DNA of 64,000 nucleotides, taken from sequence record JX128259. The stretch is one strand, 5' to 3'. The position numbers and the translations under genes are program-made. Origin of the DNA: Escherichia phage ECML-134. Each line of letters opens with the position of its first letter. Positions within the stretch are counted from its first letter, which is position 1. Under the pieces are notes generated by a model. That model saw only the letters and a program-made list of their open reading frames with translations. It made no database searches and was not told the DNA's origin. This document shows positions 4,965 to 43,376 of this stretch, piece after piece.

Positions 4965-5030
4965 GTTATCGAGTTGGTGCCATTATATACATCATTTTCT
5001 GAGTGTGTTTTGTGTGCTTTTAAAATGAAG

Positions 5031-5052
5031 AAAGGGGCCGAAGCCCCTTATG
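5031..5052 (-). terminator. Hairpin terminator downstream of hoc
   Basis: AAGGGGC-CGAA-GCCCCTT flanked by a T-run on the - strand. Confidence 0.7.
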
Positions 5053-5053
5053 A

Positions 5054-6184
5054 TTATGGATAGGTATAGATGATACCAGTTTCTAAAGCAGTTTTATGAA
5101 TGATATATCCATTACGTGATTCTTGGACATCAACTTCTGGATAGTCTTTCATCATCTTCTGAAGAGTGTAACGATGCAGGTAGTATTTACTATCTGGATC
5201 TTCAGTTTTCCAATCTTTACCTTCTTCAGTCATTTTTTGGATTTCATCCATAACCCACCAACCGCACTAGATGTAAGCTGAGCTACGGTGTGGAAGAGGA
5301 TGAACATAAGGTAATTCACCTTCTGGTTCTGGAGCAACTTTATCAGTTACCTGAACTTGACCTGTGGCTTTAACTGTTTTACTATCATAGTCAGTTGCTG
5401 TAACGACAGCAGTAACTTCAATAGTTTGACTTCCAATAGATGAGGTATCAACAGTATATACGTTAGTTGACCCTTCCACAGGAGAAGAATCTTTCTTCCA
5501 TGAGTAAGTAATTTGTGCTGCTTCAGGTGCGCCAGTAACATTAGCAGTAAATGTAGCCGAAGTATCTTGCTGAACATTAATAGAAGGAGGAGTCAATGTA
5601 ACCTGTGGATTCATTGTCTTCTTATTAACTGTCAATGATACTTCATTGGAAGTAACTTCTTTTGCATCATAATCTGTCGCGGTTACTTGAGCCACACACT
5701 TAATTGTTTTAACTCCGCTTGTGGTAGGAGTGTAATTGAATGTAGCAGAAGTTGCTTCGCCCACAGGAGAACCGTCAACGTACCATTGATACGTAGCAGA
5801 TGCACCTGGTGGCTGCGAAGCTAAGGCAGCGGTAAATTCAATAGCTGTTCCAATTACTCCAGCGTCAGGGCTATTAGGAGTTACAGCTAGGGTAGTCGTT
5901 TGTGTCTTATTTTGAACTGTGATAGTTGTAGAAGCTTCTGCTGTTTCAGCTTCAGCTTCTGGAACTGGGTTTGTTGCAACTACTTTAATAGTCTTTTGAC
6001 CGGCAGGTCCTTTTAGTACATAGCTAAAAGTTGCTGACGTTTCTTCCTGCGGAGCGTCGTCTACAGTCCAAGCATATGTAATAGGTCCATCTCCAGTTTG
6101 ACCACTGGGTGTAGCAGTAAACTGCTGAGTCTGATCTATAACTCCAGTAGGTGTTTTAGGAGTTATATCAACGGTAAAAGCCAT
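5054..6184 (-). pseudogene. hoc: hoc (highly immunogenic outer capsid protein) interrupted by an in-frame amber codon at 5267-5269
   Basis: ORF 5267..6184 (305 aa, Ig-like domain repeats) ends ...HRSSAYI-TAG; reading continues in the same frame as CGWWVMDEIQK... to the stop at 5054; 305+1+70=376 codons, the length of T4 Hoc. Confidence 0.85.
5267..6184 (-). CDS. hoc: Hoc N-terminal fragment (Ig-like domains) as translated in a non-suppressing host
   Basis: 305-aa ORF with repeated Ig-like segments (TATDYD..., VTLTPPS...). Confidence 0.85.
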   Translation of the reverse strand: MAFTVDITPKTPTGVIDQTQQFTATPSGQTGDGPITYAWTVDDAPQEETSATFSYVLKGPAGQKTIKVVATNPVPEAEAETAEASTTITVQNKTQTTTLAVTPNSPDAGVIGTAIEFTAALASQPPGASATYQWYVDGSPVGEATSATFNYTPTTSGVKTIKCVAQVTATDYDAKEVTSNEVSLTVNKKTMNPQVTLTPPSINVQQDTSATFTANVTGAPEAAQITYSWKKDSSPVEGSTNVYTVDTSSIGSQTIEVTAVVTATDYDSKTVKATGQVQVTDKVAPEPEGELPYVHPLPHRSSAYI

Positions 6185-6193
6185 AAGTTATCC

Positions 6194-6874
6194 TTATTTT
6201 AATGTTATGAAAGAAGAATTGCGTGTTTCACGAATTAGAACTGATCCGTCACGATTAATGTAGTAAATTAAGCTAAATAAAGTTTGGTGTGCCGACGCGT
6301 GTTCAAAACTAGTTGGGTGAGATTTCCAATCCGGAGTTTCAGCAATCCACTGGTAAATCCACCAAGGAACAGTGCAGAATCCTGGATTTTTTCCAATCAG
6401 CTGAAGATTCGGACTAAAGTTTTCCGGAAGAGTAAATACAGACGGCTTTTCAGATTCAATAATCTCAGCTACAGCCTGTTCGAATTTTTCTTCAACAAAA
6501 GGAGTATCTTCAATCAAAACATCGGTATTTTCAGGAATTTTATCCGTTTCTATGACTTCAATTTTAATGTCAGATTTAACCGGAGAATCAATCAGAAGTG
6601 CTGCTTCTGGATTGACTTCTTCATCGTCATATTTTAATCCCTCTGCAGCATCTGCAGCATCGATTAAGTCTTTAATAGATAACCCATCAGTCTCTGGCAT
6701 AGGTTCACTAGCGAGCTTCTGGAGGGCTTCTTCAATATCAATAACGATATTATCAAAAGATTTATTCTTTTTGACCTTTATACCAAACTGTTCAGCATAT
6801 TCAGCTAATTTAGCTTTAGCTTCTTTATTATCATCAAGAGCCTTCAACTCTGCAATATAATCTTTATCTATCAT
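6194..6874 (-). CDS. inh: Inh, inhibitor of prohead protease gp21 (head internal protein)
   Basis: 226-aa acidic protein at T4 inh position between hoc and segE. Confidence 0.8.
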   Translation of the reverse strand: MIDKDYIAELKALDDNKEAKAKLAEYAEQFGIKVKKNKSFDNIVIDIEEALQKLASEPMPETDGLSIKDLIDAADAAEGLKYDDEEVNPEAALLIDSPVKSDIKIEVIETDKIPENTDVLIEDTPFVEEKFEQAVAEIIESEKPSVFTLPENFSPNLQLIGKNPGFCTVPWWIYQWIAETPDWKSHPTSFEHASAHQTLFSLIYYINRDGSVLIRETRNSSFITLK

Positions 6875-7543: not shown

Positions 7544-9052
7544 ATGGATATTAAAGTACATTTTCACGACTTCAGTCATGTACGCATCGATTGTGAAGAG
7601 AGCACGTTCCACGAATTAAGAGATTTCTTTTCGTTTGAGGCCGATGGATATAGATTTAATCCTCGCTTCAGATATGGCAACTGGGATGGACGAATCCGTC
7701 TTTTAGATTATAATCGCCTTCTTCCGTTCGGCTTAGTTGGGCAAATTAAAAAGTTCTGTGATAACTTTGGCTATAAAGCCTGGATTGACCCACAAATTAA
7801 CGAAAAAGAAGAATTATCAAGAAAAGATTTTGATGAATGGCTTTCTAAATTAGAAATCTATTCAGGAAATAAAAGAATTGAACCACATTGGTATCAAAAA
7901 GATGCAGTGTTCGAAGGATTAGTTAATCGTCGCAGAATTCTTAATCTTCCAACATCCGCAGGTAAATCTTTAATTCAAGCTTTGCTTGCTCGGTATTATT
8001 TGGAAAATTATGAAGGTAAAATTCTTATCATTGTTCCAACAACTGCTCTAACAACTCAGATGGCTGATGACTTTGTTGACTATCGTTTATTCAGTCATGC
8101 AATGATAAAGAAAATCGGTGGCGGAGCATCAAAAGATGATAAATATAAAAATGATGCACCAGTCGTTGTTGGTACATGGCAAACTGTAGTAAAACAACCA
8201 AAAGAATGGTTCTCACAGTTTGGAATGATGATGAATGATGAATGCCATCTTGCTACAGGAAAAAGTATTTCATCTATCATATCAGGTTTAAATAACTGCA
8301 TGTTCAAATTCGGTTTGTCTGGTTCATTACGAGATGGCAAAGCCAATATCATGCAGTATGTTGGAATGTTTGGTGAAATATTTAAGCCAGTAACGACTTC
8401 TAAATTAATGGAAGATGGACAAGTAACTGAGCTAAAAATTAATAGTATTTTTCTTCGCTATCCCGATGAGTTCACTACTAAATTAAAGGGAAAAACTTAC
8501 CAAGAAGAAATAAAAATTATTACTGGGCTTAGTAAAAGAAATAAATGGATCGCTAAATTAGCTATTAAGCTTGCGCAAAAAGATGAAAACGCTTTTGTCA
8601 TGTTTAAACATGTATCGCATGGTAAAGCTATTTTCGATTTAATTAAAAATGAATACGATAAAGTTTATTACGTATCAGGGGAAGTTGATACCGAAACCCG
8701 CAATATAATGAAAACCTTAGCTGAAAATGGTAAAGGAATAATTATAGTAGCGAGTTATGGCGTATTTTCTACTGGTATTTCAGTTAAAAATCTGCATCAC
8801 GTTGTTTTAGCGCACGGTGTTAAATCAAAAATCATTGTATTACAAACAATCGGTCGTGTATTACGTAAGCATGGTTCTAAAACAATCGCAACGGTCTGGG
8901 ACCTCATAGATGATTGTGGTGTTAAGCCAAAATCTGCTAATACGAAAAAGAAATATGTTCATTTGAACTATCTTTTAAAACACGGCATTGATCGTATTCA
9001 GCGCTACGCAGATGAAAAATTTAATTACGTAATGAAAACAGTTAATTTATAA
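7544..9052 (+). CDS. uvsW: UvsW RNA-DNA/DNA helicase
   Basis: 502 aa; helicase motifs (PTSAGKS Walker A-like, DECH); T4 position and length. Confidence 0.92.
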   Translation: MDIKVHFHDFSHVRIDCEESTFHELRDFFSFEADGYRFNPRFRYGNWDGRIRLLDYNRLLPFGLVGQIKKFCDNFGYKAWIDPQINEKEELSRKDFDEWLSKLEIYSGNKRIEPHWYQKDAVFEGLVNRRRILNLPTSAGKSLIQALLARYYLENYEGKILIIVPTTALTTQMADDFVDYRLFSHAMIKKIGGGASKDDKYKNDAPVVVGTWQTVVKQPKEWFSQFGMMMNDECHLATGKSISSIISGLNNCMFKFGLSGSLRDGKANIMQYVGMFGEIFKPVTTSKLMEDGQVTELKINSIFLRYPDEFTTKLKGKTYQEEIKIITGLSKRNKWIAKLAIKLAQKDENAFVMFKHVSHGKAIFDLIKNEYDKVYYVSGEVDTETRNIMKTLAENGKGIIIVASYGVFSTGISVKNLHHVVLAHGVKSKIIVLQTIGRVLRKHGSKTIATVWDLIDDCGVKPKSANTKKKYVHLNYLLKHGIDRIQRYADEKFNYVMKTVNL

Positions 9053-9065
9053 GGGCTTCGGCCCT

Positions 9066-9308
9066 TTGGAGAAAAAGATGTTACTAGAATTTAAACAATT
9101 TCTTTATGAAGCTTCTATTGATGAATTTATGGGTAAAATTGCCTCTTGTCAAACATTAGAAGGTTTAGAAGAACTTGAAGCTTATTATAAGAAAAGAGTT
9201 AAAGAAACTGAATTAAAAGATACTGATGACATCTCTGTAAGAGATGCTTTGGCAGGAAAAAGAGCTGAATTAGAAGATTCAGACGATGAAGTAGAAGAAA
9301 GCTTTTAA
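9066..9308 (+). CDS. uvsW.1: UvsW.1 small acidic protein
   Basis: 80-aa ORF immediately downstream of uvsW with RBS. Confidence 0.75.
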   Translation: MEKKMLLEFKQFLYEASIDEFMGKIASCQTLEGLEELEAYYKKRVKETELKDTDDISVRDALAGKRAELEDSDDEVEESF

Positions 9309-17928: not shown

Positions 17929-17958
17929 ACTATAACACAACATAAGGAACTTGTAAAC
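17929..17958 (-). promoter_or_regulatory. Early (sigma70-type) promoter TTTACA-N17-TATAGT
   Basis: -35 and -10 hexamers with 17-nt spacer on the - strand upstream of ORF 17607..17897; -35 overlaps the alt stop. Confidence 0.7.
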
Positions 17959-20021
17959 TACATCTTGAACTTTTTAGACATTCCGTTGATGTTAACCAAA
18001 GAAGCTAAGATTTGAGAAACTTCGTTTTCCTCTTCTTTTGATTCTTCTACAAGGAATTGATTAAATCCAGCCATTGGACGAACTTCACCAGTTTCCATTA
18101 GATGGTCTCCATCATATACTGATTCTTCTAATTGTTCAGAAGGAGGAACGATTGTACCTTCGATTAGATACTTGTTATAAGCAGTTTCTTTCATAAAGTA
18201 CGTACTTACTTTATTAATCTTCAGTAAAATTCCACGCGGTAGAATAACTTCAGCTTCTGATGGAAATCCTGATAAATGACCTGGAACGATAACTTTGATT
18301 CGCTCAGCTCCTTTAATTACCATACCCACGCTAGTTTCAGCATCTTCATTGGCATATGTAGAATGACTACCCATATGCATTAAATCTTCTGCATCAACGG
18401 AACCTTCTCCTTCGCCAGAAAATACTGCGCCGGAATCATCTAGAGCCATATAGTTTTTACCATGCTCACCGAAGATATTTGGTTTAAGTGATGTCGATAC
18501 GAAGTTCTTGAAATAGAACATTTTATTTTCAATGTTATGACGCAAAGTTTTAAAGGTAACTTCTTGTCCACGGTAAAGTGTAGTTCCTGGAGGAAGAACT
18601 GATCCTTTGGCAAAGGCAGAATCTAACGTCTCGATGTGCTTAATAGCTCGTTCCATGTATTCTTCACGGGTAGAATCTGGTTTACCCAAAAGGAACGAGT
18701 TCATTTCAACATATGAATCTGCACAATAATCTTCAATTACATCAGATTCAGCCTGAGTCAGTCCTTTTGGAGTTACTTCGGTGCTTGCGTATTCATATGC
18801 CTGAGCAGCAGATTCATTAATCAATTTATAAATGCCATTCATTACAAATTGAATAATAGCTGTCTTTTCATCTGACGTAGCTTTAGAACCTTTAACTAAA
18901 TCATTGATAATTTTCTTAATAACATCAAAGCTATTAGAAATATTAATGTCAGCAAGATCGCTTAAAATTTTATCAGTTTTATAATCAAAGAATTCTTTAT
19001 TCTTTAAATATTCTTGAGAACCTTGATATGTTATATCGCTCTGCAGCTTGATAGATGGATCGCGTAAACGTGCATGGGCTAATGCAATATGATTTCGGAA
19101 ACTTTCTAGTTCATAATCATTAGATTTAAAACGAGAAGCACTTCTCATACCACCGATAGCTCCTTTGCTGAAGTTTGAACCAATCTGGATAACGCCAGAG
19201 TTCATTGGTCCTTCTGCTTTATATACCGGAACTTTAGATTCAAACTCTTGATATTTCTTGGCAGCGAAGCTATCACCCTGAAGTGAAGCATCAACAGTAG
19301 AATATTGAGCTTGTGCTGCTAATCGACGACTAATTTTAGTTTTCTGAATAACAGCTTGATCAGTGCGCTTATCATTTTCTAAAGCAATAGAAGCAGCAAC
19401 AGCGACAGCTTTAGGAACAGCATTACCTGTTTTAACGTCTACATAAACATCACCAACCTTTGATTCAACTTTTGTGAATAACTCAGTTGAAATAGGAGGT
19501 ACACCTGGAATGTCTTCTAAATTGGCATTTTTACGGTAAACCATAATATATGCATACTTTTTATCGTAATCCCAGAGTTCCTTAAGAAGGACGTATCTGC
19601 CACCTGAACGACTACGGATAAGTCTATCAGCAATAACTTGAATTTGTCGAGCTTGGCCAGCAGTTTTAGACTTAAGAATACGAAGCATACAAGCATCAAT
19701 TTTATATTGACGCATTGTTTGCATTGCAACAGTAAAAACTGAATTGATATAATTAATTGGGCTTGGACCAAGACCTTTTAATTTAGCAATTGAACCTTTA
19801 GCAGTTAATGTAAAAGGAACAATATGCATCATTTTGTCGCCCATTTTTAAATCGCGATTAGTATCACCTCCAGATGTATAGGTACATAAACGAAAGCCTG
19901 GTTGTTCAATTGCATCATCAACATGAACTGAAAAAATTTGTGGTATTTTCTTCTTTGGATTTAAGTTTGTAATCGGAAGAGTAGTATCTTCGTCAAATAA
20001 TTCTGTAATGAGTTCCATCAT
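17958..20021 (-). CDS. alt: Alt ADP-ribosyltransferase (packaged in the virion, modifies host RNA polymerase)
   Basis: 687-aa ORF at the T4 alt position; ART-type motifs (Y-R-G, STS region, EVILP) in the C-terminal half. Confidence 0.88.
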   Translation of the reverse strand: MMELITELFDEDTTLPITNLNPKKKIPQIFSVHVDDAIEQPGFRLCTYTSGGDTNRDLKMGDKMMHIVPFTLTAKGSIAKLKGLGPSPINYINSVFTVAMQTMRQYKIDACMLRILKSKTAGQARQIQVIADRLIRSRSGGRYVLLKELWDYDKKYAYIMVYRKNANLEDIPGVPPISTELFTKVESKVGDVYVDVKTGNAVPKAVAVAASIALENDKRTDQAVIQKTKISRRLAAQAQYSTVDASLQGDSFAAKKYQEFESKVPVYKAEGPMNSGVIQIGSNFSKGAIGGMRSASRFKSNDYELESFRNHIALAHARLRDPSIKLQSDITYQGSQEYLKNKEFFDYKTDKILSDLADINISNSFDVIKKIINDLVKGSKATSDEKTAIIQFVMNGIYKLINESAAQAYEYASTEVTPKGLTQAESDVIEDYCADSYVEMNSFLLGKPDSTREEYMERAIKHIETLDSAFAKGSVLPPGTTLYRGQEVTFKTLRHNIENKMFYFKNFVSTSLKPNIFGEHGKNYMALDDSGAVFSGEGEGSVDAEDLMHMGSHSTYANEDAETSVGMVIKGAERIKVIVPGHLSGFPSEAEVILPRGILLKINKVSTYFMKETAYNKYLIEGTIVPPSEQLEESVYDGDHLMETGEVRPMAGFNQFLVEESKEEENEVSQILASLVNINGMSKKFKM

Positions 20022-33322: not shown

Positions 33323-33349
33323 AATAAAATGGGCCTTGCGGCCCACTCC

Positions 33350-34528
33350 TTAAAAGTATTTTTTAAAACTCATCATAACTTTATCATCAACATCATTATC
33401 AATCTGTGCTACAAGGTAAGATGACAGTTCTACTTCTTGCGGCGCGGATTGAACATTATCAGAATTAAGGTATTCACGAATCCAAGGATATGGATGTTTA
33501 ACCGGAGCATCGGTAATTGGGCATGGAAGACCACACTGTTTCATACGAGATACAGTTAAGTAATCAATAAAGCTCCACATGCTATTTGTATTTAATCCAG
33601 GAACATCGCCATCTTTAAATAAATGAACTGCCCAATCTTTTTCTTGGCGGTTAACTTCCATGAAAATATCAACTGCTTCTTGTTCACACTCTTGAGCAAT
33701 TTTAACCCATTCATCGCCATCAGTGCCAAGTTGAAGTTGACGAATAATATATTGAGTGCCTTTAAGGTGAAGCTGCTCATCACGTGCAATAAACTTCATA
33801 ATCTTGGCATTACCTTCCATGATTTCCATGTTCTTATGGAAGTTAAAGGTACATGCAAAAGATACATAAAAACGAATAGCTTCTAAGGCATTAATAACGT
33901 GTAAACAGAGGTAAAGAGACTTCATTAAAGCGCGTTTAGCTTCGGCTTCTTGCTTAATAGCTCGGTTTAAACGAAAGTCGGCATCAGGAGATTCTTTAGC
34001 TAGTTCTACAAATTCTTTAGCATTTTCCCATTCACGGGTTTTAATCAGAACATCATCATAATAGCGACCGATAGATTCAGCACGTTTCATGATAGCTTCA
34101 TCTAATACAATCTCATCAAATACCTTTGACGGATCAGTATAAAGATTTCGCATGATATGAGTATATGAACGACTGTGAATAGTTTCACTAAAAGTCCATG
34201 TAGCAACCCATGTATCAAGGCTTGGGTCTGAAATTAATGACATAAGTACAGCAGACGGCGCACGGCCCTGAATGCTATCCAAAAGTGATTGATACTTCAG
34301 GTTGTTAGTAAAAATATTTTGCTGATACTGAGGAAGCTTATTAAACTGTGCAGCATCCATCATTAAGTTTACTTCTTCCGGGCGCCAGAAAAATGACAAT
34401 TGCTTTTCGGTCAAATCTTCAAAAACTTTATGGCGTTGAATATCATAACGCGCAATACCAAGACCTGAACCAAAAAACATAGGTTCTTTTAAAACATCAA
34501 CTGGATTTGTGTTAAAAATTGTGCTCAT
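33350..34528 (-). CDS. nrdB: Ribonucleotide reductase class Ia beta subunit, uninterrupted
   Basis: 392-aa continuous ORF with iron-centre motifs (EAIHS-like ETIHSRSY, tyrosyl-radical region); no intron. Confidence 0.92.
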   Translation of the reverse strand: MSTIFNTNPVDVLKEPMFFGSGLGIARYDIQRHKVFEDLTEKQLSFFWRPEEVNLMMDAAQFNKLPQYQQNIFTNNLKYQSLLDSIQGRAPSAVLMSLISDPSLDTWVATWTFSETIHSRSYTHIMRNLYTDPSKVFDEIVLDEAIMKRAESIGRYYDDVLIKTREWENAKEFVELAKESPDADFRLNRAIKQEAEAKRALMKSLYLCLHVINALEAIRFYVSFACTFNFHKNMEIMEGNAKIMKFIARDEQLHLKGTQYIIRQLQLGTDGDEWVKIAQECEQEAVDIFMEVNRQEKDWAVHLFKDGDVPGLNTNSMWSFIDYLTVSRMKQCGLPCPITDAPVKHPYPWIREYLNSDNVQSAPQEVELSSYLVAQIDNDVDDKVMMSFKKYF

Positions 34529-34579
34529 AAATTTTCCGCTTAGTTAATAGTTGGTGACTCGTCCGTGAGTCAAATTATA

Positions 34580-36844
34580 TCATAATTTACAGGATGAACA
34601 ATCTTCAGCTTTTGGAGTTTCTATTTCATAATCATCAGTACCAGAACCATCACGGGTATTATGATAATAGAAATTTTTTCCGCCAAAATACCAGAAATAC
34701 AAAAGGTCATCAATCATTATTGACATTGGAACCTTTCCTTTTGGAAAAATCTGCGGGTCATAGTATGTATTCGCTGAAGCTGATTGACATACCCATTTCA
34801 GCATAATAGCTACTTGCGTAAGATAAGGTTTATTACCTTTCTTAGCTAATTTCCATGTATAATCATATAGGTCTATGTTATGCTCAATATTGGGCACGAC
34901 TTGATTAAAGGAGCCCTCTTTTGATTCTTTAACAGAGACTGGTCCACGTGGAGGCTCGATACCGTTTGTACTGTTAGAAACTTGGGAAGATGACTCACAT
35001 GGCATAAGTGCTGATAATGTGCTATTACGGATGCCAAAGAGCTTAAGGTCTTCCCGCAGCGACGACCAGTCACAAACGTATTTTGGAGCTGCGATTTGGT
35101 CAATCTTTTTATTGTACCAGTCGATAGGTAATTCGCCTCGAGACCAACGAGTGTCTGAATAATATTCGCAAGGTCCTTTTTCTTTGGCGAGATTAATGGA
35201 TGCTTTAATGAGTCCATACTGTAATCTCTCAAATAGTTCATGTGTTAAATCGTTAGCATCTTCATAAGAAGCAAAGTTACTTGCCAGCCAAGCTGCATAG
35301 TTGGTAACACCTACACCAAGGTTACGACGCTTTTTAGCTTTTTCTGCTTCAGGAACTGGATATCCTTGGTAATCCAAAAGATTATCAAGAGCACGAACTT
35401 GAACTTCTGCCAATTCATTAATTTTATCTTGGTCTTGCCAATCAAAATTATCTAGTACGAATGCAGAGAGAGTACACAATCCAATTTCAGCATCAGGACT
35501 ATTCACATCATTTGTTGGAATAGCAATTTCACAGCACAAGTTACTCTGACGAATAGGTGCCTTTTCACGAATAAACGGAGTATAGTTATTCGTATTATCA
35601 ATGAACTGTACATAAATCCTTGCTGTTCCTGAACGTTCAGTCATGAGCAATTCAAATAGTTCACGGGCTTTAATACGCTTTTTACGAATATTAGGATCTT
35701 TTTCTGCTGCTTCGTATAATTCACGGAAACGGTCTTGGTCTTTAAAATAAGAATAATAAAGCTCGCCACCCATTTCATGCGGACTGAACAAAGTAATGTA
35801 ATCGTTCTTTCCAAAACGTTCCATCATCAAATCATTCAGCTGAACACCATAATCCATATGACGAATGCGGTTTTCTTCTACGCCTTTGTTATTTTTCAAA
35901 ACGAGAAGATTTTCAACTTCCAAATGCCAAATAGGATAATAAGCAGTAGCAGCGCCGCCACGAATTCCACCCTGTGAACATGATTTAACTGCAGTCTGAA
36001 AATGTTTCCAAAAAGGAATAACACCAGTATGACGTACTTCACCCATGCCAATCTTAGAACCTTCAGCACGAATCATACCAACGTTAATACCAATTCCAGC
36101 GCGTTTAGAGATATATTCAACAATTGAAGCGGAAGCCTTATTGATAGACTTCAGCGAATCACCTGCCTCAATAACAACGCATGAACTGAACTGTCGAGTC
36201 GGAGTACGACAACCAGCCATAATAGGAGTTGGCAATGAAATCTGTCGAGTAGATACTGCTTCATAAAAACGAATAACATGTTTTAATCTATCAACAGGTT
36301 CATCTTGATGCAATGCCATTCCAATAGTCATAAATGCAAACTGTGGAGTTTCATAAATTTGACCAGTGGTTTTATCTTTAACTAAATATTTTTCTTTTAA
36401 TTGCATCGCCCCGGAATAAGTAAATTCCATATCCCGTTCGTGCTTAATTTTTGATTCTAAAAATGTAATTTCTTCTGCTGAATATTTTGACAACAATTCA
36501 GGGTCATATTTACCTGCATTTACACAATAAGAAATATGGTCAATAAATGAACGTGGTTCATACTGCCCATAAACATGCTTACGAAGAGCGAACATTAAAC
36601 AGCGTGCAGCTACATATTGATAATCAGGCTCTTCAACCGAAATAGAATTCGCAGCGGCCTTAATGACAATAGTCTGAATATCATCAGTTGTCATTCCATC
36701 ACGGAGATATGATTTAATATTTTCATATAATTCATAAGGATCTACTGATGTTCCCTCAGCTGCCCAAGATAAAACTTTAATAATTTTTTGCGGGTCAAAG
36801 CTCTGAGAAACACCACTACTTTTGATAACATTAATTAATTGCAT
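34580..36844 (-). CDS. nrdA: Ribonucleotide reductase class Ia alpha subunit
   Basis: 754 aa; ATP-cone N-terminus, active-site NLCCEI and C-terminal redox cysteines CSSCKL. Confidence 0.95.
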   Translation of the reverse strand: MQLINVIKSSGVSQSFDPQKIIKVLSWAAEGTSVDPYELYENIKSYLRDGMTTDDIQTIVIKAAANSISVEEPDYQYVAARCLMFALRKHVYGQYEPRSFIDHISYCVNAGKYDPELLSKYSAEEITFLESKIKHERDMEFTYSGAMQLKEKYLVKDKTTGQIYETPQFAFMTIGMALHQDEPVDRLKHVIRFYEAVSTRQISLPTPIMAGCRTPTRQFSSCVVIEAGDSLKSINKASASIVEYISKRAGIGINVGMIRAEGSKIGMGEVRHTGVIPFWKHFQTAVKSCSQGGIRGGAATAYYPIWHLEVENLLVLKNNKGVEENRIRHMDYGVQLNDLMMERFGKNDYITLFSPHEMGGELYYSYFKDQDRFRELYEAAEKDPNIRKKRIKARELFELLMTERSGTARIYVQFIDNTNNYTPFIREKAPIRQSNLCCEIAIPTNDVNSPDAEIGLCTLSAFVLDNFDWQDQDKINELAEVQVRALDNLLDYQGYPVPEAEKAKKRRNLGVGVTNYAAWLASNFASYEDANDLTHELFERLQYGLIKASINLAKEKGPCEYYSDTRWSRGELPIDWYNKKIDQIAAPKYVCDWSSLREDLKLFGIRNSTLSALMPCESSSQVSNSTNGIEPPRGPVSVKESKEGSFNQVVPNIEHNIDLYDYTWKLAKKGNKPYLTQVAIMLKWVCQSASANTYYDPQIFPKGKVPMSIMIDDLLYFWYFGGKNFYYHNTRDGSGTDDYEIETPKAEDCSSCKL

Positions 36845-37161
36845 AAGTCCTCAACTTGAAAATCGTCTTTAAACAGTCGGTTAACTATATGAGCTATTAT
36901 ATCACCATGACACGGATTTGGTTTACATGTGCATCCTAGCCTCATTCCACGTAAAGGCTCTAAATGTGCTTTAGTTATTTCTCCGGATTTAATTCGACGT
37001 ATAAAATCTTTTTTGAATAATTCAATGGCAGCCGGGAGGCTGCCAGCATCTTTACCGACGTAATTTCCCCAAAATGTACCACGGTGAATATTAACATCAA
37101 AGTCGGATTTATATTTATTCACTACCTGGCATAGACGGCCCGCGCGGTGATAATTCGTCAT
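36835..37161 (-). CDS. Hypothetical protein (nrdA.1-like)
   Basis: 108-aa ORF. Confidence 0.6.
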
Positions 37162-37390
37162 ATTGTTTTTCCGTTAAAACAGTAATATCATAGTAACAAT
37201 CAGAAGAAGTTTTAACTGTAGAAATTTTATTATCAAAATACTCACGAGTCATTTTATGAGTATAATATTTTTTGCCATAAATGATAATAGGCTGATTTGG
37301 TCCTGGAACTTCTAGCTCACTTGGATTAGGAAGTGTAAAAAGAACTACACCAGAAGTATCTTTAAATCGTAAAATCATATATCCTCGCAA
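37115..37390 (-). CDS. Hypothetical protein (nrdA.2-like)
   Basis: 91-aa ORF. Confidence 0.55.
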
Positions 37391-37401
37391 TTAAATTGAA
37401 A

Positions 37402-37713
37402 TTACACCGCCATCTTTCCTTTAATTGGCGGGTGAGATACATAGTTGTTAAGAACAAAATTATGCGGCTTTGCGAATTGACTCAACCAAAATACCTGCGA
37501 TTCTGTGTTCCATTCATCAAATTCATCTGGAAATTTTAATTGTAATTCGCATAAATCCATAGGTTCACGACGCAAAATTTCTTTACATTGTTCTACGTGA
37601 TTCATATAGATATGAGTATTACCGCCAGAAAATATCAAATCTCCAGGAATAAGATTACACATCTTAGCTACAATATGAACTAACGCAGCATATGATGCAA
37701 TATTAAACGGTAG
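37402..37713 (-). CDS. td: Thymidylate synthase, exon 2
   Basis: Continues exon 1 in frame after intron removal: ...DVFLG|LPFNIASYAALVH...; exons total 286 aa. Confidence 0.92.
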   Translation of the reverse strand, partial: LPFNIASYAALVHIVAKMCNLIPGDLIFSGGNTHIYMNHVEQCKEILRREPMDLCELQLKFPDEFDEWNTESQVFWLSQFAKPHNFVLNNYVSHPPIKGKMAV

Positions 37714-38729
37714 CATTATGTTCAGATAAGGTCGTTAATCTTACCCCGGAATTATATCCAGCTGCATGTCACCATGCAGAGCAGACTATATCTCCAACTT
37801 GTTAAAGCAAGTTGTCTATCGTTTCGAGTCACTTGACCCTACTCCCCAAAGGGATAGTCGTTAGGCATTTATGTAGAACCAATTCCATTTATCAGATTTT
37901 ACACGATAAGTAACTAATCCAGACGAAATTTTAAAATGTCTAGCTGCATCTGCTGCACATTCAAAAATAACCCCATCACATGAAATCTTTTTAATATTAC
38001 TAGGCTTTTTACCTTTCATCTTTTCTGATATTTTAGATTTAGTTATGTCTGAATGCTTATGATTAAAGAATGAATTATTTTCACCTGAACGATTTCTGCA
38101 TTTACTACAAGTATAAGCAGAAGTTTGTATGCGAACACCACACTTACAAAACTTATGGGTTTCTGGATTCCAACGCCCATTTTCACTTCCATATTTACCA
38201 TAAAGAGCTTTTCGGCCTTTTACGCCGAGTTTAAGCATATTTACTTTAACAGTTTCAGAGCGTTTCTTGATAATTTCTTCTTTTAATGGATGTGTAGAAC
38301 ATGTATCACCAAACGTTGCATCAGCAATATTGTATCCATTAATTTTAGAATTAAGCTCTTTAATCCAAAAATTTTCTCGTTCAATAATCAAATCTTTCTC
38401 ATATGGAATTTCTTCCAAAATAGAACATTCAAACACATTACCATGTTTGTTAAAAGACCTCTGAAGTTTTATAGAAGAATGGCATCCTTTTTCTAAATCT
38501 TTAAAATGCCTCTTCCATCTCTTTTCAAAATCTTTAGCACTTCCTACATATACTTTATTGTTTAAAGTATTTTTAATCTGATAAATTCCACTTTTCATAA
38601 ATACCTCTTTAAATATAGAAGTATTTATTAAAGGGCAGTCCTACAATTTAGCACGGGATTGTCTACTAGAGAGGTTCCCCGTTTAGATAGATTACAAGTA
38701 TAAGTCACCTTATACTCAGGCCTCAATTA
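37714..38729 (-). ncRNA. Self-splicing group I intron in td, 1016 nt
   Basis: Intron 5-prime end reads TAATTGAGGCCTGAGTATAAGGTGACTTATAC..., recalled td intron sequence; 3-prime terminal G at 37714; length 1016 as recalled for the T4 td intron. Confidence 0.92.
37861..38598 (-). CDS. I-TevI: Intron-encoded GIY-YIG homing endonuclease I-TevI
   Basis: 245 aa; GIYQIKNTLNNKVYVGSA GIY-YIG motif; zinc finger CKCGVRIQTSAYTCSKC; lies inside the td intron. Confidence 0.95.
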   Translation of the reverse strand: MKSGIYQIKNTLNNKVYVGSAKDFEKRWKRHFKDLEKGCHSSIKLQRSFNKHGNVFECSILEEIPYEKDLIIERENFWIKELNSKINGYNIADATFGDTCSTHPLKEEIIKKRSETVKVNMLKLGVKGRKALYGKYGSENGRWNPETHKFCKCGVRIQTSAYTCSKCRNRSGENNSFFNHKHSDITKSKISEKMKGKKPSNIKKISCDGVIFECAADAARHFKISSGLVTYRVKSDKWNWFYINA

Positions 38730-39278
38730 ACCCAAGAAAACATCTACTGAGCGTTGATACCATTGAAGGTCAAGGTATCCATTACGCACATTAAACTGAT
38801 AGAACATATGACAAGGCGGTAATGCCATATATTTAAGTTCAGCTGGATTCCATGCAGAAACAATTTGACGCCTATCATTTGGCAATTTTTTAATACGATC
38901 AACAACTTCTATAATTTGGTCTACACCGCCAAAATCGCGCCATTGTTTTCCATAAATTGGACCAAGTTCACCGCTATGGTATCCTAAATCTTTTGCTTGA
39001 TTTTCGTAATTTTCATCCCAGACTGTTTTGCCTTGAATTAATGAATCATGTTGAATTAATCGTAAATCATTGACATTTGTGCTTCCCGATAAAAACCATA
39101 TTAGCTCAGCAATGCAAGCTTTCCAGGCGAGCTTCTTAGTTGTTACTGCAGGAAAACCTTTAGTTAAATCCCAGCGTAATTTAGTACCGAACAAAGCAAT
39201 TGTTCCTGTGCCCGTTCTGTCATCGGTTTCATAGCCATTTTCAAAAATGTCTTTAATTAAATCTTGGTATTGTTTCAT
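38730..39278 (-). CDS. td: Thymidylate synthase, exon 1
   Basis: 183 codons ending ...DVFLG immediately before the intron 5-prime TAA; active-site region ALPPCH. Confidence 0.93.
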
Positions 39279-39323
39279 TTAGTACCTTATATAAATTATA
39301 ATACATTTTATGAAGCTAAATAA

Positions 39324-39671
39324 TCAATACGGTTTAGCATCAAATTTTCTCTCAATTTCAGGCGTGAAATATAATTCTTTACCGCGTTTGGAAAAGCGAC
39401 CAATAATATGATAATTATTCTCATCAAACGTAATATTACCAATATCCATAGCTTTCAACCAAATATCGATATTTCTATCCAGCTTTATGTCAAAATTCCA
39501 ATACGGAGAACTATTACCGAAAATACTGCAAGCAGATTCAGTGAAACAACTGCTATAAATCTTGTCTTTAGGAACTACTAATTGATAGACACCTTTAATA
39601 AACTGAGGACCCTGCCATTTAGGTTGTTTCACGTCTTTTTCTAATAGAATAGGGTAATAATTAAAATTCAT
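39324..39671 (-). CDS. Hypothetical protein encoded between frd and td (about 115 aa from the ATG; the ORF track extends to a GTG at 39683)
   Basis: Uninterrupted ORF filling a 413-bp gap between frd stop and td start. Confidence 0.55.
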   Translation of the reverse strand: MNFNYYPILLEKDVKQPKWQGPQFIKGVYQLVVPKDKIYSSCFTESACSIFGNSSPYWNFDIKLDRNIDIWLKAMDIGNITFDENNYHIIGRFSKRGKELYFTPEIERKFDAKPY

Positions 39672-39691
39672 ATTTTCCGCCACGCGTTATT

Positions 39692-40518
<827 letters not shown>

Positions 40519-40528
40519 ATTATTTTCC

Positions 40529-40771
40529 TCAGACAGACTTTTTCACAATTTTCCAATCAGCTTTAAACTGCTCGACGTCAGAATGGTAAATCCAGAATCC
40601 TGCGCTTTCTCCGTCTTCATAAAGAGGACATCCATCGCATTCATCTTCCCATCCCATATCACGTAAAAGATGTTCAGCTTTTTCAACAAGTTCAGAATCT
40701 TTACCGATGATATTAAAATACCATTTACCTCTAACTTCCGAATCTTTAATGCTCTGACGTTGTAATCTCAT
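40529..40771 (-). CDS. Hypothetical protein (frd.2-like)
   Basis: 80-aa ORF with GGAGAA RBS. Confidence 0.6.
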   Translation of the reverse strand: MRLQRQSIKDSEVRGKWYFNIIGKDSELVEKAEHLLRDMGWEDECDGCPLYEDGESAGFWIYHSDVEQFKADWKIVKKSV

Positions 40772-40880
40772 TTTATTCTCCTTAGCAAGCTTTAATCAAA
40801 AGATATAAACAAACCAACATAACTGCTGCCATAATATAAGGTGCGAACATTTTCTTTTCTCCATTAGTTTTGATAGGGTA

Positions 40881-40910
40881 ATAGTATCACACTACTACCC
40901 TGTTGTAAAC
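40881..40910 (-). promoter_or_regulatory. Early promoter TTTACA-N17-TACTAT
   Basis: GTTTACA ... TACTAT on the - strand with 17-nt spacer. Confidence 0.6.
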
Positions 40911-41353
40911 TACTTTTTGAAAGTTTTTCGCAAAAGTTCAATGATTTCATCTACATTGTTTTCATCTACAATGCAGTGAATTTTTGTTACACCAGAAACC
41001 TTGTCTTTAACTTCATCCTCTTCAGAAGTCGGTTCTTTATATTCGCGGAAACAATAAAACTCTTCTTCACTAAGTTCAAAATAATCATCACCCATACCAT
41101 CATCATTATAGATTTCACCATTAGCACAAATGATTTCGGTTACATAATCAAATCCATCTAAACTTGATATTGATTTAACTTCAAACCAACCACCATTTTC
41201 TTGAATGATGCCGACCATATTAGCATTTGATGAACTAATATCAATGAAAGATTTAATACGGTGTGGATTTAACTCGTATTTTTTGCCGATTTCCATTTTG
41301 ATTTTCCTCATTTTTAATAGGGGCTTAATAGCCCCTTGATAATTATTGTTCAA
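40910..41353 (-). CDS. Hypothetical protein (frd.3-like)
   Basis: 147-aa ORF. Confidence 0.6.
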
Positions 41354-41570
41354 TCAGTCCCATGTAAAATTCTGCGTCTTCAGCATCCATACCGTCGCAG
41401 TATTCATTAGCCATAAAGCGGGTGAGGTCTTCAAGAGGACCTTCAATAACGATTTGAATACTCCAAAACTTAGAATCTTGCACGCTTGTAATACTAAGTT
41501 CAGGATAACGATTACGAATAATCTCTTCAATATATTCAAAATCAACGATGTCAATATCAACTTTAGCCAT
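41343..41570 (-). CDS. Hypothetical protein; start placed at internal Met (MAKVDIDIV...) because an early promoter -10 lies inside the longer ORF
   Basis: Promoter at 41614-41643 and GAGGAAAATAAT-ATG RBS. Confidence 0.55.
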
Positions 41571-41613
41571 ATTATTTTCCTCTTCAATTATTAGCAGTAT
41601 TGCTGATAGTTGT

Positions 41614-41643
41614 ATAGTACCATGGAAGGACAAGGATGTAAAC
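41614..41643 (-). promoter_or_regulatory. Early promoter TTTACA-N17-TACTAT with A/T-rich UP element
   Basis: GTTTACA ... tggTACTAT on the - strand; A/T-rich upstream tract 41644-41673. Confidence 0.65.
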
Positions 41644-41659
41644 AGTTTTGTGAAAAATT

Positions 41660-41693
41660 TTTAAAATAAAAAAGGGGACCTCTAGGGTCCCCA
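41660..41693 (-). terminator. Terminator downstream of gene 32
   Basis: GGGGACC-TCTAG-GGTCCCC with T-run on the - strand. Confidence 0.75.
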
Positions 41694-41714
41694 ATTAATT
41701 AGTAATATAATCTA

Positions 41715-42623
41715 TTAAAGGTCATTCAAAAGGTCATCCAGGTCCGTGTCATCAGCACTAGATGAACTGCCAGAGCTTGAGCTCATAAAATCATCTTCAG
41801 TTTTTGTATTGAAGTCATCAACATTGAATGCATCCAAATCATCAGCAACTTTATCAGCTTTCTTAGCAGCAGTCGCTGCGGCACCACCCATTGCAGCAGT
41901 TCCCATAACTTGACCGAATTTAGTGCTCAGTTCTTCAAATGATTTGAATTTATCTTTAGAAGTCATTTCAGAAAGGTCAACCATTTGTTCGAACAGTTCT
42001 TTCTGGAAAGATTCATCGTCAATGTTTGGAATCGCAGATTGATTCAGGAATTTAGATTCGTCGTAGTTACTAAAACCAGAAACTTGTTTAACTTTCAGTA
42101 CAAAGTTAGCACCTTCCCACGGACAAGTTACATCAACCGGAGTTTCACCCATTTCAACATCAACTGCAATCATTGCATTGATTTTATCCCAGATTTTCTT
42201 ACCGAAACGATATTTAAATACTTTACCTTCGTTTTCTGGAGCAGCTGGGTCTTTTACAACAAGAATGTTAGCCCAGTAAGAAGTTTTACGTTTAACAAGA
42301 CTGTACTCTTTATTGTCAGTGTTGTACAAATCATTTTTACTGATGTACTGACATACTGGACAAGAATCGTAATCACCGTAGGTAGATGAGCATGTTTCGA
42401 TATACCATTTACCATTTTTCTTGAAACCGTGATTTACAAGAAGTGCGAATGGTGCTTGTTCATCATTTTTAGACGGAAGAAAACGAATTACTGCTTGGCC
42501 GTTACCCGCATTGTCGAGTTTCAGTTTCCACTCGCCTTTATCTTCAGAAGAAAAACCACCTTTATTTCCAGCCAGTTTAGCCATTTGCGCAGCGAGTTCA
42601 GCAGTAGATTTACGTTTAAACAT
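41715..42623 (-). CDS. 32: gp32 single-stranded DNA-binding protein
   Basis: 302 aa; acidic Ser/Asp-rich C-terminal tail; zinc-binding Cys/His cluster; T4 length. Confidence 0.95.
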
Positions 42624-42700
42624 TTTTATTTCCTTTTTAATTTAATTAACAGTTGGTGCTATGACGATGTATGACCTCATAGCTGGTCAGTGAGATAATT
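42624..42700 (-). promoter_or_regulatory. Gene 32 5-prime leader / translational autoregulatory operator (A/U-rich unstructured region)
   Basis: Long A/T-rich leader TTAATTAAATTAAAAAGGAAATAAAAATG upstream of gene 32; gp32 autoregulation is established for T4. Confidence 0.6.
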
Positions 42701-42706
42701 ATAATC

Positions 42707-42714
42707 TATTTATA
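42707..42714 (-). promoter_or_regulatory. Late promoter TATAAATA (gene 32)
   Basis: Octamer on the - strand in the 59-32 intergenic region. Confidence 0.65.
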
Positions 42715-42722
42715 ATAAGCAA

Positions 42723-43376
42723 TTAATACTTGCAAGATTTCACAGTTTCAATGAAAACATTTTTAGCTTTCTGTGAATCAATATTTAAAATTTTTCTATA
42801 AGCCTTTAACTTTATAGAATAATTATTCCAGACTAAATTATCAGTCTGTTCATCATGTTTATCAATTATATTTAAAAACGAATCAAGCAAGATAAACGTT
42901 TCAAACGAAATTATATTCGATTGAAGTAGTTTAAAAATATAACTTGATTGAACTTTTGGATTATACTCAAAGATTTCTTTAAAAGCAGAAACTTCAACTT
43001 TTTTACTAAAATAGTAAATATTGCGAATATCTTCTTCAAACTTAAATTTAATTTGCTTTAAGCGTCCGATATATTCACGATAAAACACAAGTGCATCAGC
43101 GTCAGAGATGTCACCAATCCAAGCATCTTGGTTAGCAACCAAATTACTTATAAAAATTAAAGCAAGTTCCTTTAATTTATATTTTTCTGATAACTTCTGG
43201 AAAAAATACTTATCCCTTCGCTTTTGATAAGCGGCATCAGACACCCGCATGCACCAATTATACTTAATAACATCATACTTTCCATTCATATGCTGTTTTA
43301 TCATTAAGTATAATTTATAAACTGATTTACCATCAATGTATCTTTCACCACCAGCAGGCATGCGGAGTTTAATCAT
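42723..43376 (-). CDS. 59: gp59 helicase loader
   Basis: 217 aa, T4 length and position. Confidence 0.9.
   Translation of the reverse strand: MIKLRMPAGGERYIDGKSVYKLYLMIKQHMNGKYDVIKYNWCMRVSDAAYQKRRDKYFFQKLSEKYKLKELALIFISNLVANQDAWIGDISDADALVFYREYIGRLKQIKFKFEEDIRNIYYFSKKVEVSAFKEIFEYNPKVQSSYIFKLLQSNIISFETFILLDSFLNIIDKHDEQTDNLVWNNYSIKLKAYRKILNIDSQKAKNVFIETVKSCKY

What the first reader, a model, noticed from the sequence alone, without database searches (positions are those of the whole stretch)
5054..6184. hoc is split by a single in-frame amber codon; the capsid-binding C-terminal domain is still encoded downstream
On the - strand the Hoc reading frame runs ...LPHRSSAYI-TAG-CGWWVMDEIQKMTEEGKDW... 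The TAG at 5267-5269 sits where T4 Hoc has a Trp (TGG) as I recall it, and 305+1+70 codons reproduces the 376-aa T4 Hoc length. The downstream 70 codons are fully open and conserved, so the lesion looks recent (or is a laboratory amber allele) rather than old decay. In a non-suppressor host the phage would make an Ig-domain fragment without the capsid-binding domain, i.e. a Hoc-minus capsid; in a supE/supF host full-length Hoc could be restored.
Basis: partly seen in the sequence, partly recalled or inferred. Interest (0 to 1): 0.65.

Follow-up and report, generated by a model that had tools for sequence, protein, structure and literature searches.

The report
Amber stop in phage hoc gene
The T4-like therapy-candidate phage vB_EcoM_SCS4, like the commercial biocontrol phage ECML-134, has a single-base stop codon in the gene for its dispensable, highly immunogenic head-decoration protein Hoc, so its capsids most likely lack Hoc; this is an ordinary loss-of-function allele, though relevant to how such phages behave in animals.

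Summary
On the minus strand, hoc (6184..5054) carries an in-frame TAG at 5267-5269, which is codon 306. T4 and 272 other phage records with the same local sequence have TGG (Trp) there. The downstream 70 codons are open and 69/70 identical to T4.

The window is the last 64 kb of GenBank ON506924.1, phage vB_EcoM_SCS4, a wastewater isolate sequenced with Illumina at more than 1000x. It is not a laboratory T4 allele.

The same truncated 305-aa Hoc and the same 65-aa downstream ORF are found, residue for residue, in phage ECML-134 (JX128259, published 2012). A base-calling error is therefore unlikely, and the allele is at least about ten years older than SCS4.

The stop lies inside the capsid-binding domain (residues 281-376), not in front of it. 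Trp306 itself contacts the major capsid protein.

I found no suppressor tRNA, no recoding structure, and no such stop in the relatives and metagenome collections I could search.

Best reading: a spontaneous null allele of a dispensable gene, like the hoc ochre allele of T4 HAP1. Frameshifted hoc genes occur in several other deposited genomes. The Hoc-less capsid is inferred, not shown.

Interest is low to moderate. The main relevance is applied: immunogenicity and mucus adherence of a therapy or biocontrol phage.

The parts
5270..6184 (-). hoc codons 1-305: three Ig-like domains plus the first 25 residues (281-305) of the capsid-binding domain. Annotated as URQ05371.1.
   Evidence: ORF list and translation. 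Pfam Ig_3, I-set and PKD hits. PHROG 1149 'Hoc-like head decoration', E = 1.4e-74. Exact match to ECML-134 AFO10703.1.
5267..5269 (-). In-frame amber codon TAG at hoc codon 306 (TGG Trp in T4). The changed base is window 5268, which is ON506924.1 position 108051.
   Evidence: A 30-mer with TAG hits only SCS4 among 50,697 phage records; the same 30-mer with TGG hits 272 records.
5057..5266 (-). hoc codons 307-376: the remaining 70 residues of the capsid-binding domain, still open and conserved.
   Evidence: 69/70 amino acids identical to T4. PHROG 1149 E = 1.9e-39. PDB 5vf3_Z alignment. 99.5% nucleotide identity to the intact hoc of GADU22, KK4 and A6-6.
5057..5344 (-). Span encoding the whole C-terminal capsid-binding domain (T4 residues 281-376), interrupted by the TAG.
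   Evidence: Domain limits from PMC10385173. Only two nucleotide differences from GADU22 across this span: G917A (nonsense) and a synonymous change at Tyr360.
5054..5251 (-). 65-codon ORF from the in-frame Met312 ATG (5249-5251) to the natural hoc stop TAA (5054-5056). Annotated as URQ05370.1. A possible reinitiation product; no evidence that it is made.
   Evidence: The ATG lies 15 nt after the TAG. An SD-like GGTGGG lies upstream, with duplex energy -8.1 kcal/mol but spacing of only 2-3 nt. PHROG 21694 is a 66-position family that matches exactly this fragment. Identical to ECML-134 AFO10702.1.
6191..6195 (-). hoc Shine-Dalgarno AAGGA, overlapping the inh stop codon. Start signals are intact.
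   Evidence: Sequence. 38/40 upstream nucleotides identical to T4.
5022..5047 (-). Intrinsic-terminator-like hairpin GGGGCTTCGGCCCC plus a T-run just after the hoc stop, as in T4.
   Evidence: Sequence. 68/70 downstream nucleotides identical to T4.

Best explanation
A single G-to-A transition (C-to-T on the plus strand) changed Trp306 (TGG) of hoc to an amber stop in an ancestor shared by phages ECML-134 and vB_EcoM_SCS4. On ordinary non-suppressing E. coli, translation ends after residue 305. The product is a soluble fragment of about 32 kDa (my estimate from its length): three Ig-like domains plus an orphan 25-residue stub of the capsid-binding domain. It lacks the three-helix bundle, two of the four beta-strands and the Trp306/309/310 contacts, so it should not dock onto gp23* hexamers, and the virions should be Hoc-less. 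Because Hoc is dispensable for growth in culture, the allele is neutral under plaque purification and production, and it persists. Shown here: the lesion, its position inside the domain, its absence from the other relatives I could search, its presence in two GenBank records, and the absence of suppressor or recoding signals. Inferred: loss of Hoc from the capsid, and neutrality.
For: - TAG at codon 306 versus TGG in T4.
- Trp is conserved at this position in 19/19 complete diverse Hocs from IMG/VR and in 272 phage records sharing the 30-mer, against one record with TAG.
- No match for a stop at this codon in IMG/VR (TAG, TAA or TGA) or in GTDB genome contigs, plasmids or E. coli genomes (TAG only). 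In JGI metagenomes TAG and TAA gave only two matches, both chance and not hoc.
- The exact 305-aa and 65-aa products are also present in ECML-134 as AFO10703.1 and AFO10702.1. That genome was published in 2012 by a different group (PMC3530527).
- SCS4 was sequenced on Illumina MiSeq at more than 1000x after at least three plaque purifications (PMC9697832).
- Of about 90 T4 proteins with homologues in the window, hoc is the only one truly disrupted. The apparent uvsW break is the common uvsW + uvsW.1 form, shared by 478 records.
- The capsid-binding domain is residues 281-376, and Trp306 contacts gp23* (PMC10385173).
- T4 HAP1, a spontaneous hoc ochre mutant (C496T), lacks functional Hoc on its capsid (PMC10580926).
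- None of the nine tRNAs in the SCS4 genome has a CUA anticodon.
- The local RNA fold is unremarkable, z = -0.34.
- hoc start signals and terminator are intact.
Against: - No protein or virion data exist for SCS4 or ECML-134.
- The ECML-134 DNA could not be retrieved, so whether its stop is TAG or TGA is unverified.
- SCS4 and ECML-134 appear to have the same record length (166,783 bp), and the SCS4 pipeline (Genome Detective) makes use of reference genomes. The two records may therefore not be fully independent. Against this, the TAG lies in the conserved part of hoc, where reads from any Tequatrovirus would map.
- Persistence of the allele in two genomes that differ in gp12, wac and rIIA could mean it is not simply neutral laboratory drift.
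- A reinitiation start 15 nt downstream, with an SD-like sequence, leaves open that a C-terminal fragment is made.
- The suppressor status of the clinical host strain is unknown.
Confidence: 0.8

Rival explanations
1. Sequencing or assembly artefact: the real phage has TGG, and the TAG is a consensus error or was carried over from a reference used to build the SCS4 record.
For: A single-base difference. The SCS4 pipeline used Genome Detective and compared against ECML-134. SCS4 and ECML-134 appear to share the same record length of 166,783 bp, and all nine window proteins tested are identical between them.
Against: Two records from different laboratories and platforms, ten years apart, encode the same truncated products. 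Illumina depth above 1000x makes a consensus substitution error very unlikely. The TAG sits in the conserved 3' part of hoc, where about 600 records match at 90% identity or more, so reads would map there and overrule a reference base. SCS4 does differ from ECML-134 in gp12, wac and rIIA, so it is not a copy of the reference. The rest of the window has no broken genes.
Confidence: 0.06
2. The split gene is still partly functional. Possible routes: low-level readthrough of UAG; termination-reinitiation at Met312 giving a 65-aa C-terminal fragment that occupies Hoc sites; or non-covalent reassembly of the 305-aa and 65-aa pieces. Any of these would give sparse or altered capsid decoration, which selection might maintain.
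For: The in-frame ATG lies 15 nt after the stop and is preceded by GGTGGG, with anti-SD duplex energy -8.1 kcal/mol, stronger than about 90% of real starts in the window. The allele is shared by two genomes that differ elsewhere. Nature does make Ig-less Hoc proteins of 106 aa, consisting of the capsid-binding domain alone. Reinitiation after nonsense codons is classical in T4 rIIB (own knowledge).
Against: The SD-like sequence is simply the conserved Trp-Trp codons, and its spacing of 2-3 nt is poor. The 65-aa piece lacks beta-strands 1-2 and the contact residues Tyr293, His295, Tyr304, Trp306, Trp309 and Trp310. The stop is found in no relative other than ECML-134. There is no suppressor tRNA and no RNA structure. 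Other genomes break hoc at unrelated positions, which fits random loss.
Confidence: 0.08
3. A laboratory amber allele of T4 (a classical hoc am mutant or an engineered display strain) that ended up in this genome.
For: Amber mutants of hoc are standard tools in T4 display work (PMC3012670).
Against: The genome is a sewage isolate from Kazakhstan. Its hoc differs from T4 at 151 of 1131 nt and at 51 codons at the amino-acid level. The closest Ig-region allele in GenBank is only 94% identical. Its Alt and gp38 proteins are also unlike those of T4.
Confidence: 0.01

Closest known systems
T4 HAP1 (T4 delta-Hoc), spontaneous hoc ochre mutant C496T, Gln166stop (PMC10580926)
   Same: A spontaneous single-base nonsense mutation in hoc of a T4-type phage. 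The phage is fully viable. HAP1 lacks functional Hoc on its capsid.
   Different: HAP1 has an ochre codon at 166, inside Ig domain 2 of laboratory T4. Here the stop is an amber at codon 306, inside the capsid-binding domain of a wild-type-derived lineage, leaving all three Ig domains intact. Loss of Hoc from the capsid has not been shown for SCS4.
Escherichia phage ECML-134 (JX128259 / NC_025449), component of the EcoShield biocontrol cocktail
   Same: It encodes exactly the same 305-aa truncated Hoc and the same 65-aa downstream ORF. All nine window proteins tested are identical, including gp34, gp36, gp37 and gp38.
   Different: A different isolate (USA, ATCC PTA-7949, genome published 2012). 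Its gp12, wac and rIIA are not identical to those of SCS4.
Other deposited T4-like genomes with a broken hoc: Bas41 FriedrichZschokke (MZ501067), vB_EcoM_IME537 (MT179807), IMG/VR UViG 2700989062
   Same: hoc is interrupted while the conserved C-terminal region stays recognisable. The downstream piece is sometimes annotated as its own small 'Hoc-like' protein (PHROG 21694).
   Different: Those lesions are frameshifts near codons 277, 158 and 145. Some may be homopolymer sequencing errors. None is a nonsense codon at 306.
Engineered hoc amber or deletion strains used for T4 capsid display (hoc- soc- phage)
   Same: Null hoc alleles. The capsids have empty Hoc sites that can be refilled in vitro (PMC3012670).
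   Different: Those were made deliberately in laboratory T4. This allele arose naturally or during propagation, in a different hoc sequence background.

Membership tests
Hoc (highly immunogenic outer capsid protein) gene of Tevenvirinae | N-terminal string of Ig-like domains | tested here: met
   Pfam Ig_3, I-set and PKD hits on the 305-aa product. PHROG 1149 'Hoc-like head decoration', E = 1.4e-74. 86% amino-acid identity to T4 Hoc over 376 positions.
Hoc (highly immunogenic outer capsid protein) gene of Tevenvirinae | [quoted passage not shown] | tested here: met
   With Trp restored, the sequence aligns without gaps to residues 282-376 of solved T4 Hoc (5vf3_Z), E = 6e-64, differing only at D328E. 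The coding sequence is present but interrupted by the TAG.
Hoc (highly immunogenic outer capsid protein) gene of Tevenvirinae | Genomic position between inh and gene 24.3, on the same strand | tested here: met
   Gene order rnlB - 24.2 - 24.3 - hoc - inh - segE as in T4.
Hoc (highly immunogenic outer capsid protein) gene of Tevenvirinae | One uninterrupted reading frame joining the Ig domains to the capsid-binding domain | tested here: not met
   In-frame TAG at codon 306. So this is a hoc gene carrying a nonsense allele, not an intact hoc.
Hoc (highly immunogenic outer capsid protein) gene of Tevenvirinae | Product bound at the centre of gp23* hexamers | not testable with these tools
   Needs virion protein analysis or cryo-EM.
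Null (nonsense) allele of a dispensable gene, HAP1-like | Premature stop caused by a single substitution relative to intact relatives | tested here: met
   TGG to TAG. 272 records have TGG, against one with TAG, in the same 30-mer.
Null (nonsense) allele of a dispensable gene, HAP1-like | Protein absent from the virion | not testable with these tools
   Inferred from the domain being cut and from the HAP1 precedent.
Programmed recoding (stop-codon readthrough, or bypass as in T4 gene 60) | The stop codon is conserved among relatives | tested here: not met
   Present only in SCS4 and ECML-134. Absent from 19/19 IMG/VR Hocs, 272 phage records, and the metagenome and genome collections.
Programmed recoding (stop-codon readthrough, or bypass as in T4 gene 60) | A stimulatory RNA structure or a phage-encoded suppressor tRNA | tested here: not met
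   Local fold z = -0.34. Nine tRNAs in the whole SCS4 genome, none with a CUA anticodon.
Naturally two-gene (split) Hoc | The same split, with an independently initiated downstream gene, conserved across related phages | tested here: not met
   Only ECML-134 shares it. Other split hoc genes break at different places. The SD-like sequence before Met312 is formed by the conserved Trp-Trp codons that intact genes also have.

The most novel reading that the evidence does not exclude
The W306 amber allele is not neutral drift but is maintained in a natural lineage (ECML-134 in the USA before 2012, SCS4 in Kazakhstan around 2021). On this reading the split gene does something useful. The free three-Ig-domain fragment could act as a soluble adhesin or decoy. 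The reinitiated 65-aa C-terminal piece, or rare readthrough product, could give sparse or Ig-less capsid decoration. The result would be a phage with low immunogenicity, which would fit the reported failure of SCS4 to raise phage-specific antibodies in mice (PMC12309589).
Probability: 0.06. Interest if true: 0.55.

Novelty: new member of a known kind. Interest (0 to 1): 0.27.

Why it matters
Hoc is a highly immunogenic head protein of T4 (PMC4576206) and carries the Ig-like domains thought to mediate adherence to mucus and mammalian cells. SCS4 is being developed as a therapeutic phage, and its immunogenicity in mice has been published without any mention of hoc (PMC12309589). ECML-134 is part of an FDA-cleared food biocontrol product (PMC3530527).

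If both are genotypically Hoc-null, that bears on how their low antibody induction is interpreted, with the caveat that the unrelated myovirus SCS57 was equally silent in the same study. It also bears on their clearance, on their retention in mucus, and on their possible use as ready-made Hoc-display scaffolds.

For annotation, it shows that the small 'Hoc-like head decoration' proteins of about 65 aa (PHROG 21694) include leftovers of broken hoc genes. Biologically, this is an expected kind of lesion in a dispensable gene.

Tried and rejected
1. Uniqueness of the allele. Early searches suggested the TAG was private to SCS4: one of 273 records in the phage BLAST collection, and no matches in IMG/VR or JGI metagenomes. 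An exact-protein look-up then showed that ECML-134 has the same truncated pair. ECML-134 is simply missing from the phage collection.

2. Fetching ECML-134 DNA. Five look-ups failed. In three its locus was merged with the SCS4 locus as a 'similar place', one returned only SCS4, and for gp38 no gene was on record.

3. Relaxed stop-codon patterns. A TAA/TGA pattern in IMG/VR found nothing. A TAA/TAG pattern in metagenomes gave two chance hits that are not hoc.

4. Suppressor tRNA. None found in the whole SCS4 genome.

5. Recoding or bypass structure around the TAG. None.

6. General assembly sloppiness. Rejected. The apparent uvsW frameshift is the common two-ORF form. rIIA, which looked odd as a singleton cluster, is 97.9% identical to T4 with 56 synonymous and 15 non-synonymous codon differences. 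The genome-wide scan flagged only modB as truly broken.

7. A search with the 65-aa ORF returned only fragments and was of little use.

8. Other contigs carrying the identical 65-aa ORF have TGG, lie at a contig end, or have a run of N at the site. None has TAG.

9. Sathaliyawala et al. 2010 (Hoc truncation analysis) could not be read.

Full report
WHAT THE WINDOW IS

The 1451 bases around the finding are 100% identical to GenBank ON506924.1, Escherichia phage vB_EcoM_SCS4, a Tequatrovirus from Kazakhstan. The window is the last 64 kb of that record; window position plus 102,783 gives the record position. The phage was isolated from sewage on a clinical E. coli strain and plaque-purified at least three times. 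It was sequenced on Illumina MiSeq (Nextera XT, SPAdes) to an average depth above 1000 (PMC9697832).

THE OBSERVATION

On the minus strand, hoc starts at 6184 and ends with TAA at 5054-5056. Its translation is 305 residues, then TAG at 5267-5269, then 70 residues. T4 hoc has the same length, so a codon-by-codon comparison is possible. It shows TGG (Trp306) in T4 and TAG here. The downstream 70 codons carry one conservative replacement (D328E) and six synonymous changes.

Both pieces are clearly Hoc:
- The 305-aa product hits Pfam Ig_3, I-set and PKD.
- The two pieces hit PHROG 1149 'Hoc-like head decoration' at 1e-74 and 2e-39.
- With Trp restored, residues 282-376 align without gaps to the solved T4 Hoc chain 5vf3_Z, differing only at D328E.

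Gene order is rnlB, 24.2, 24.3, hoc, inh, segE, as in T4. The ribosome-binding site and the terminator hairpin are essentially as in T4.

WHERE THE STOP FALLS IN THE PROTEIN

Fokine et al. 2023 define the capsid-binding domain as residues 281-376. It consists of a four-stranded sheet carrying a three-helix bundle. The residues that contact gp23* are Tyr293, His295, Tyr304, Trp306, Gln354 and Tyr360, plus Trp309 and Trp310 at the start of helix 1 (PMC10385173).

The amber codon therefore cuts through the domain rather than sitting in front of it. Twenty-five of the domain's residues remain attached to the Ig fragment, the mutated residue is itself a contact, and 70 residues lie downstream. Neither piece holds a complete domain. 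This corrects the title of the finding.

It also weakens the suppression prediction. A supE or supF host would restore the length, but would put Gln or Tyr at a Trp that is invariant in all 19 complete and very diverse Hocs I recovered from IMG/VR, some only 34% identical overall.

HOW COMMON THE STOP IS

- A 30-mer centred on the TAG, designed so that every 28-base seed includes the changed base, hits only SCS4 among 50,697 phage records. The same 30-mer with TGG hits 272 records.
- Degenerate exact patterns with TAG found nothing in IMG/VR, JGI metagenomes or GTDB genome contigs. A TAA/TGA pattern found nothing in IMG/VR.
- The TGG pattern found 20 IMG/VR contigs.
- Plasmid and E. coli genome collections gave nothing.
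- A looser pattern in metagenomes gave two chance matches outside hoc.

THE ECML-134 RESULT

An exact-sequence look-up changed the picture. The 305-aa product and the 65-aa downstream ORF are both identical to adjacent proteins AFO10703.1 and AFO10702.1 of Escherichia phage ECML-134 (JX128259 / NC_025449). ECML-134 is one of the three phages of the EcoShield biocontrol cocktail (ATCC PTA-7949). Its genome was published in 2012 (PMC3530527). It is absent from the phage BLAST collection, which is why the DNA searches missed it.

All nine window proteins that could be tested are exact matches to ECML-134. These include the highly variable gp34, gp36, gp37 and gp38, and several of the exact sequences were listed only for these two phages. 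Outside the window, the gp12, fibritin and rIIA sequences of SCS4 are not shared with ECML-134, while gp46 is. So the two are very close but not identical genomes that share this allele.

I could not retrieve the ECML-134 DNA. The position of its stop is established, but which stop codon it uses is not.

IS THE STOP AN ERROR?

An error is unlikely, for four reasons:
- Two laboratories, a decade apart, report the same truncation.
- Illumina consensus at more than 1000x rarely carries a substitution error.
- tblastn of 106 T4 proteins against the window shows hoc as the only gene with an internal stop.
- The one other flag, uvsW, is the ordinary uvsW + uvsW.1 arrangement, shared by 478 records.

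A genome-wide scan with T4 ORFs found one further real lesion, a 7-nt insertion in the non-essential modB gene.

One caveat remains. Proteins listed only under ECML-134 accessions are reported on a contig of 166,783 bp, which is exactly the length of SCS4. The SCS4 authors also used a pipeline that draws on reference genomes. The two records may therefore not be fully independent. However, the TAG lies in the conserved 3' part of hoc, where about 600 records match at 90% identity or more. Reads would map there and would overrule a reference base.

AGE OF THE LESION

Across codons 281-376, SCS4 differs from the intact hoc of phage GADU22 by only the nonsense change and one synonymous change. 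There is no sign of decay. The Ig region is a distinct allele: the closest in GenBank is 94% identical, and the closest proteins in the 90% cluster are intact 376-aa Hocs. That is the usual hypervariability of Hoc.

'Recent' is right in the sense that no decay is visible. But the allele predates 2012 and is not private to SCS4's purification. It is not a laboratory T4 allele either: 151 of 1131 nt differ from T4.

ALTERNATIVES TESTED

- Suppression by the phage. The whole SCS4 genome has nine tRNAs (Arg, Asn, Tyr, Met/Ile, Thr, Ser, Gly, Leu, Gln), and none has a CUA anticodon.
- Recoding. The local RNA fold is no better than shuffled sequence, z = -0.34, and the stop is not conserved.
- Reinitiation. 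An in-frame ATG (Met312) lies 15 nt after the stop, behind GGTGGG. The crude anti-SD duplex energy of -8.1 kcal/mol is stronger than about 90% of real starts in the window. However, the spacing is only 2-3 nt, and the motif is simply the conserved Trp-Trp codons. A 65-aa product is possible but would lack strands 1-2 and six of the contact residues.

PHROG 21694 is a 66-position family that matches exactly this fragment. The 90% cluster around it contains many 59-86-aa C-terminal fragments called as genes in other assemblies. Broken hoc genes are therefore recurrent. Inspected cases are frameshifts near codon 277 in Bas41, codon 158 in IME537 and codon 145 in an IMG/VR genome. Different lesions at different sites fit random loss of a dispensable gene, with some share of sequencing error.

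MECHANISM

The best-supported reading is a spontaneous null allele. [quoted passage not shown] T4 HAP1, a spontaneous hoc ochre mutant (C496T), lacks functional Hoc on its capsid (PMC10580926).

By analogy, and because the binding domain is bisected, SCS4 virions grown on non-suppressing hosts should lack Hoc. Soc should still be present, because soc is intact. This step is inferred, not shown.

CONTEXT

In mice given T4 orally, Hoc and gp12 were the highly immunogenic proteins (PMC4576206). A 2025 study found that SCS4 raised no phage-specific antibodies after intraperitoneal injection, and it does not mention hoc (PMC12309589). That result is compatible with a Hoc-less capsid but is not specific evidence for it, because the unrelated myovirus SCS57 behaved the same way.

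VERDICT

This is a new instance of a known kind of allele, not described in the literature I could search: no paper there links ECML-134 with Hoc. It has modest biological interest and some applied relevance.

Noticed in passing
window 9040-9079 (+): uvsW ends at a TAA, followed by the hairpin GGGCTTCGGCCC, an SD and the ATG of uvsW.1. This is the two-ORF form. The T4 RefSeq record instead has a single fused 587-aa uvsW. The SCS4 form is shared by 478 phage records, so it is not a lesion.
   Followed up: yes
outside the window: ON506924.1 11786-12416 (locus L051), minus strand: modB carries a 7-nt insertion (GGCAGTC) relative to T4, which shifts the frame after about codon 54. A 42-mer across the insertion is found only in SCS4 among 50,697 phage records. 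This is a second broken non-essential gene in this genome. Whether ECML-134 shares it could not be checked.
   Followed up: partly
L054 3001-3321 and L055 92-412 (protein P0008): A natural 106-aa 'Hoc' with no Ig domains at all: just the capsid-binding domain (…VIHPLPCRNSAYIWVGWWVMDEIEKL…). In L054 it is encoded directly after inh. It comes from Logan and JGI assemblies.
   Followed up: partly
L056 (Bas41 FriedrichZschokke, MZ501067), L002 (IME537, MT179807), L047 (IMG/VR UViG 2700989062): hoc is frameshifted near codons 277, 158 and 145 respectively, with the conserved C-terminal domain left in another frame. PHROG 21694, and many 59-86-aa 'Hoc-like' proteins (for example in OE5505 and BYEP02), appear to be leftovers of such breaks.
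   Followed up: partly
whole window versus phage ECML-134 (JX128259): All nine window proteins tested are residue-for-residue identical to ECML-134, a commercial EcoShield phage, although SCS4 was isolated from Kazakh sewage. These include gp34 (1289 aa), gp37 (1024 aa) and gp38. Both records appear to be exactly 166,783 bp. gp12, wac and rIIA differ. The relationship (re-isolation, a shared lineage, or a reference-guided consensus) is unresolved.
   Followed up: partly
window 53855-54655 (+) and 17958-20021 (-): gp38 has no tblastn match to T4 gp38; my reading is that it is a T2-type adhesin. Alt is only 49% identical to T4 Alt, and the alt.-1/alt.-2 remnants of T4 match only within alt itself. 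This fits mosaic replacement of host-range and injected-protein modules.
   Followed up: no
window 33346-43376 region: The T4 mobile elements I-TevIII, nrdB.1, mobE and segG have no counterpart here. I-TevI, segD and segE are present.
   Followed up: no
L050 13420-14822 (ON506924.1 about 68.4-69.8 kb): SCS4 has nine tRNA genes, including Asn(GTT) and Tyr(GTA). It has no tRNA-Pro, unlike the eight-tRNA set annotated in T4.
   Followed up: no
L059 / L071 (OQ031495.1, 'UNVERIFIED' phage MRostami-2023e): This low-quality record has a run of eight N exactly over hoc codons 305-307. Its rnlB is also split. It says nothing about the codon at that site.
   Followed up: partly
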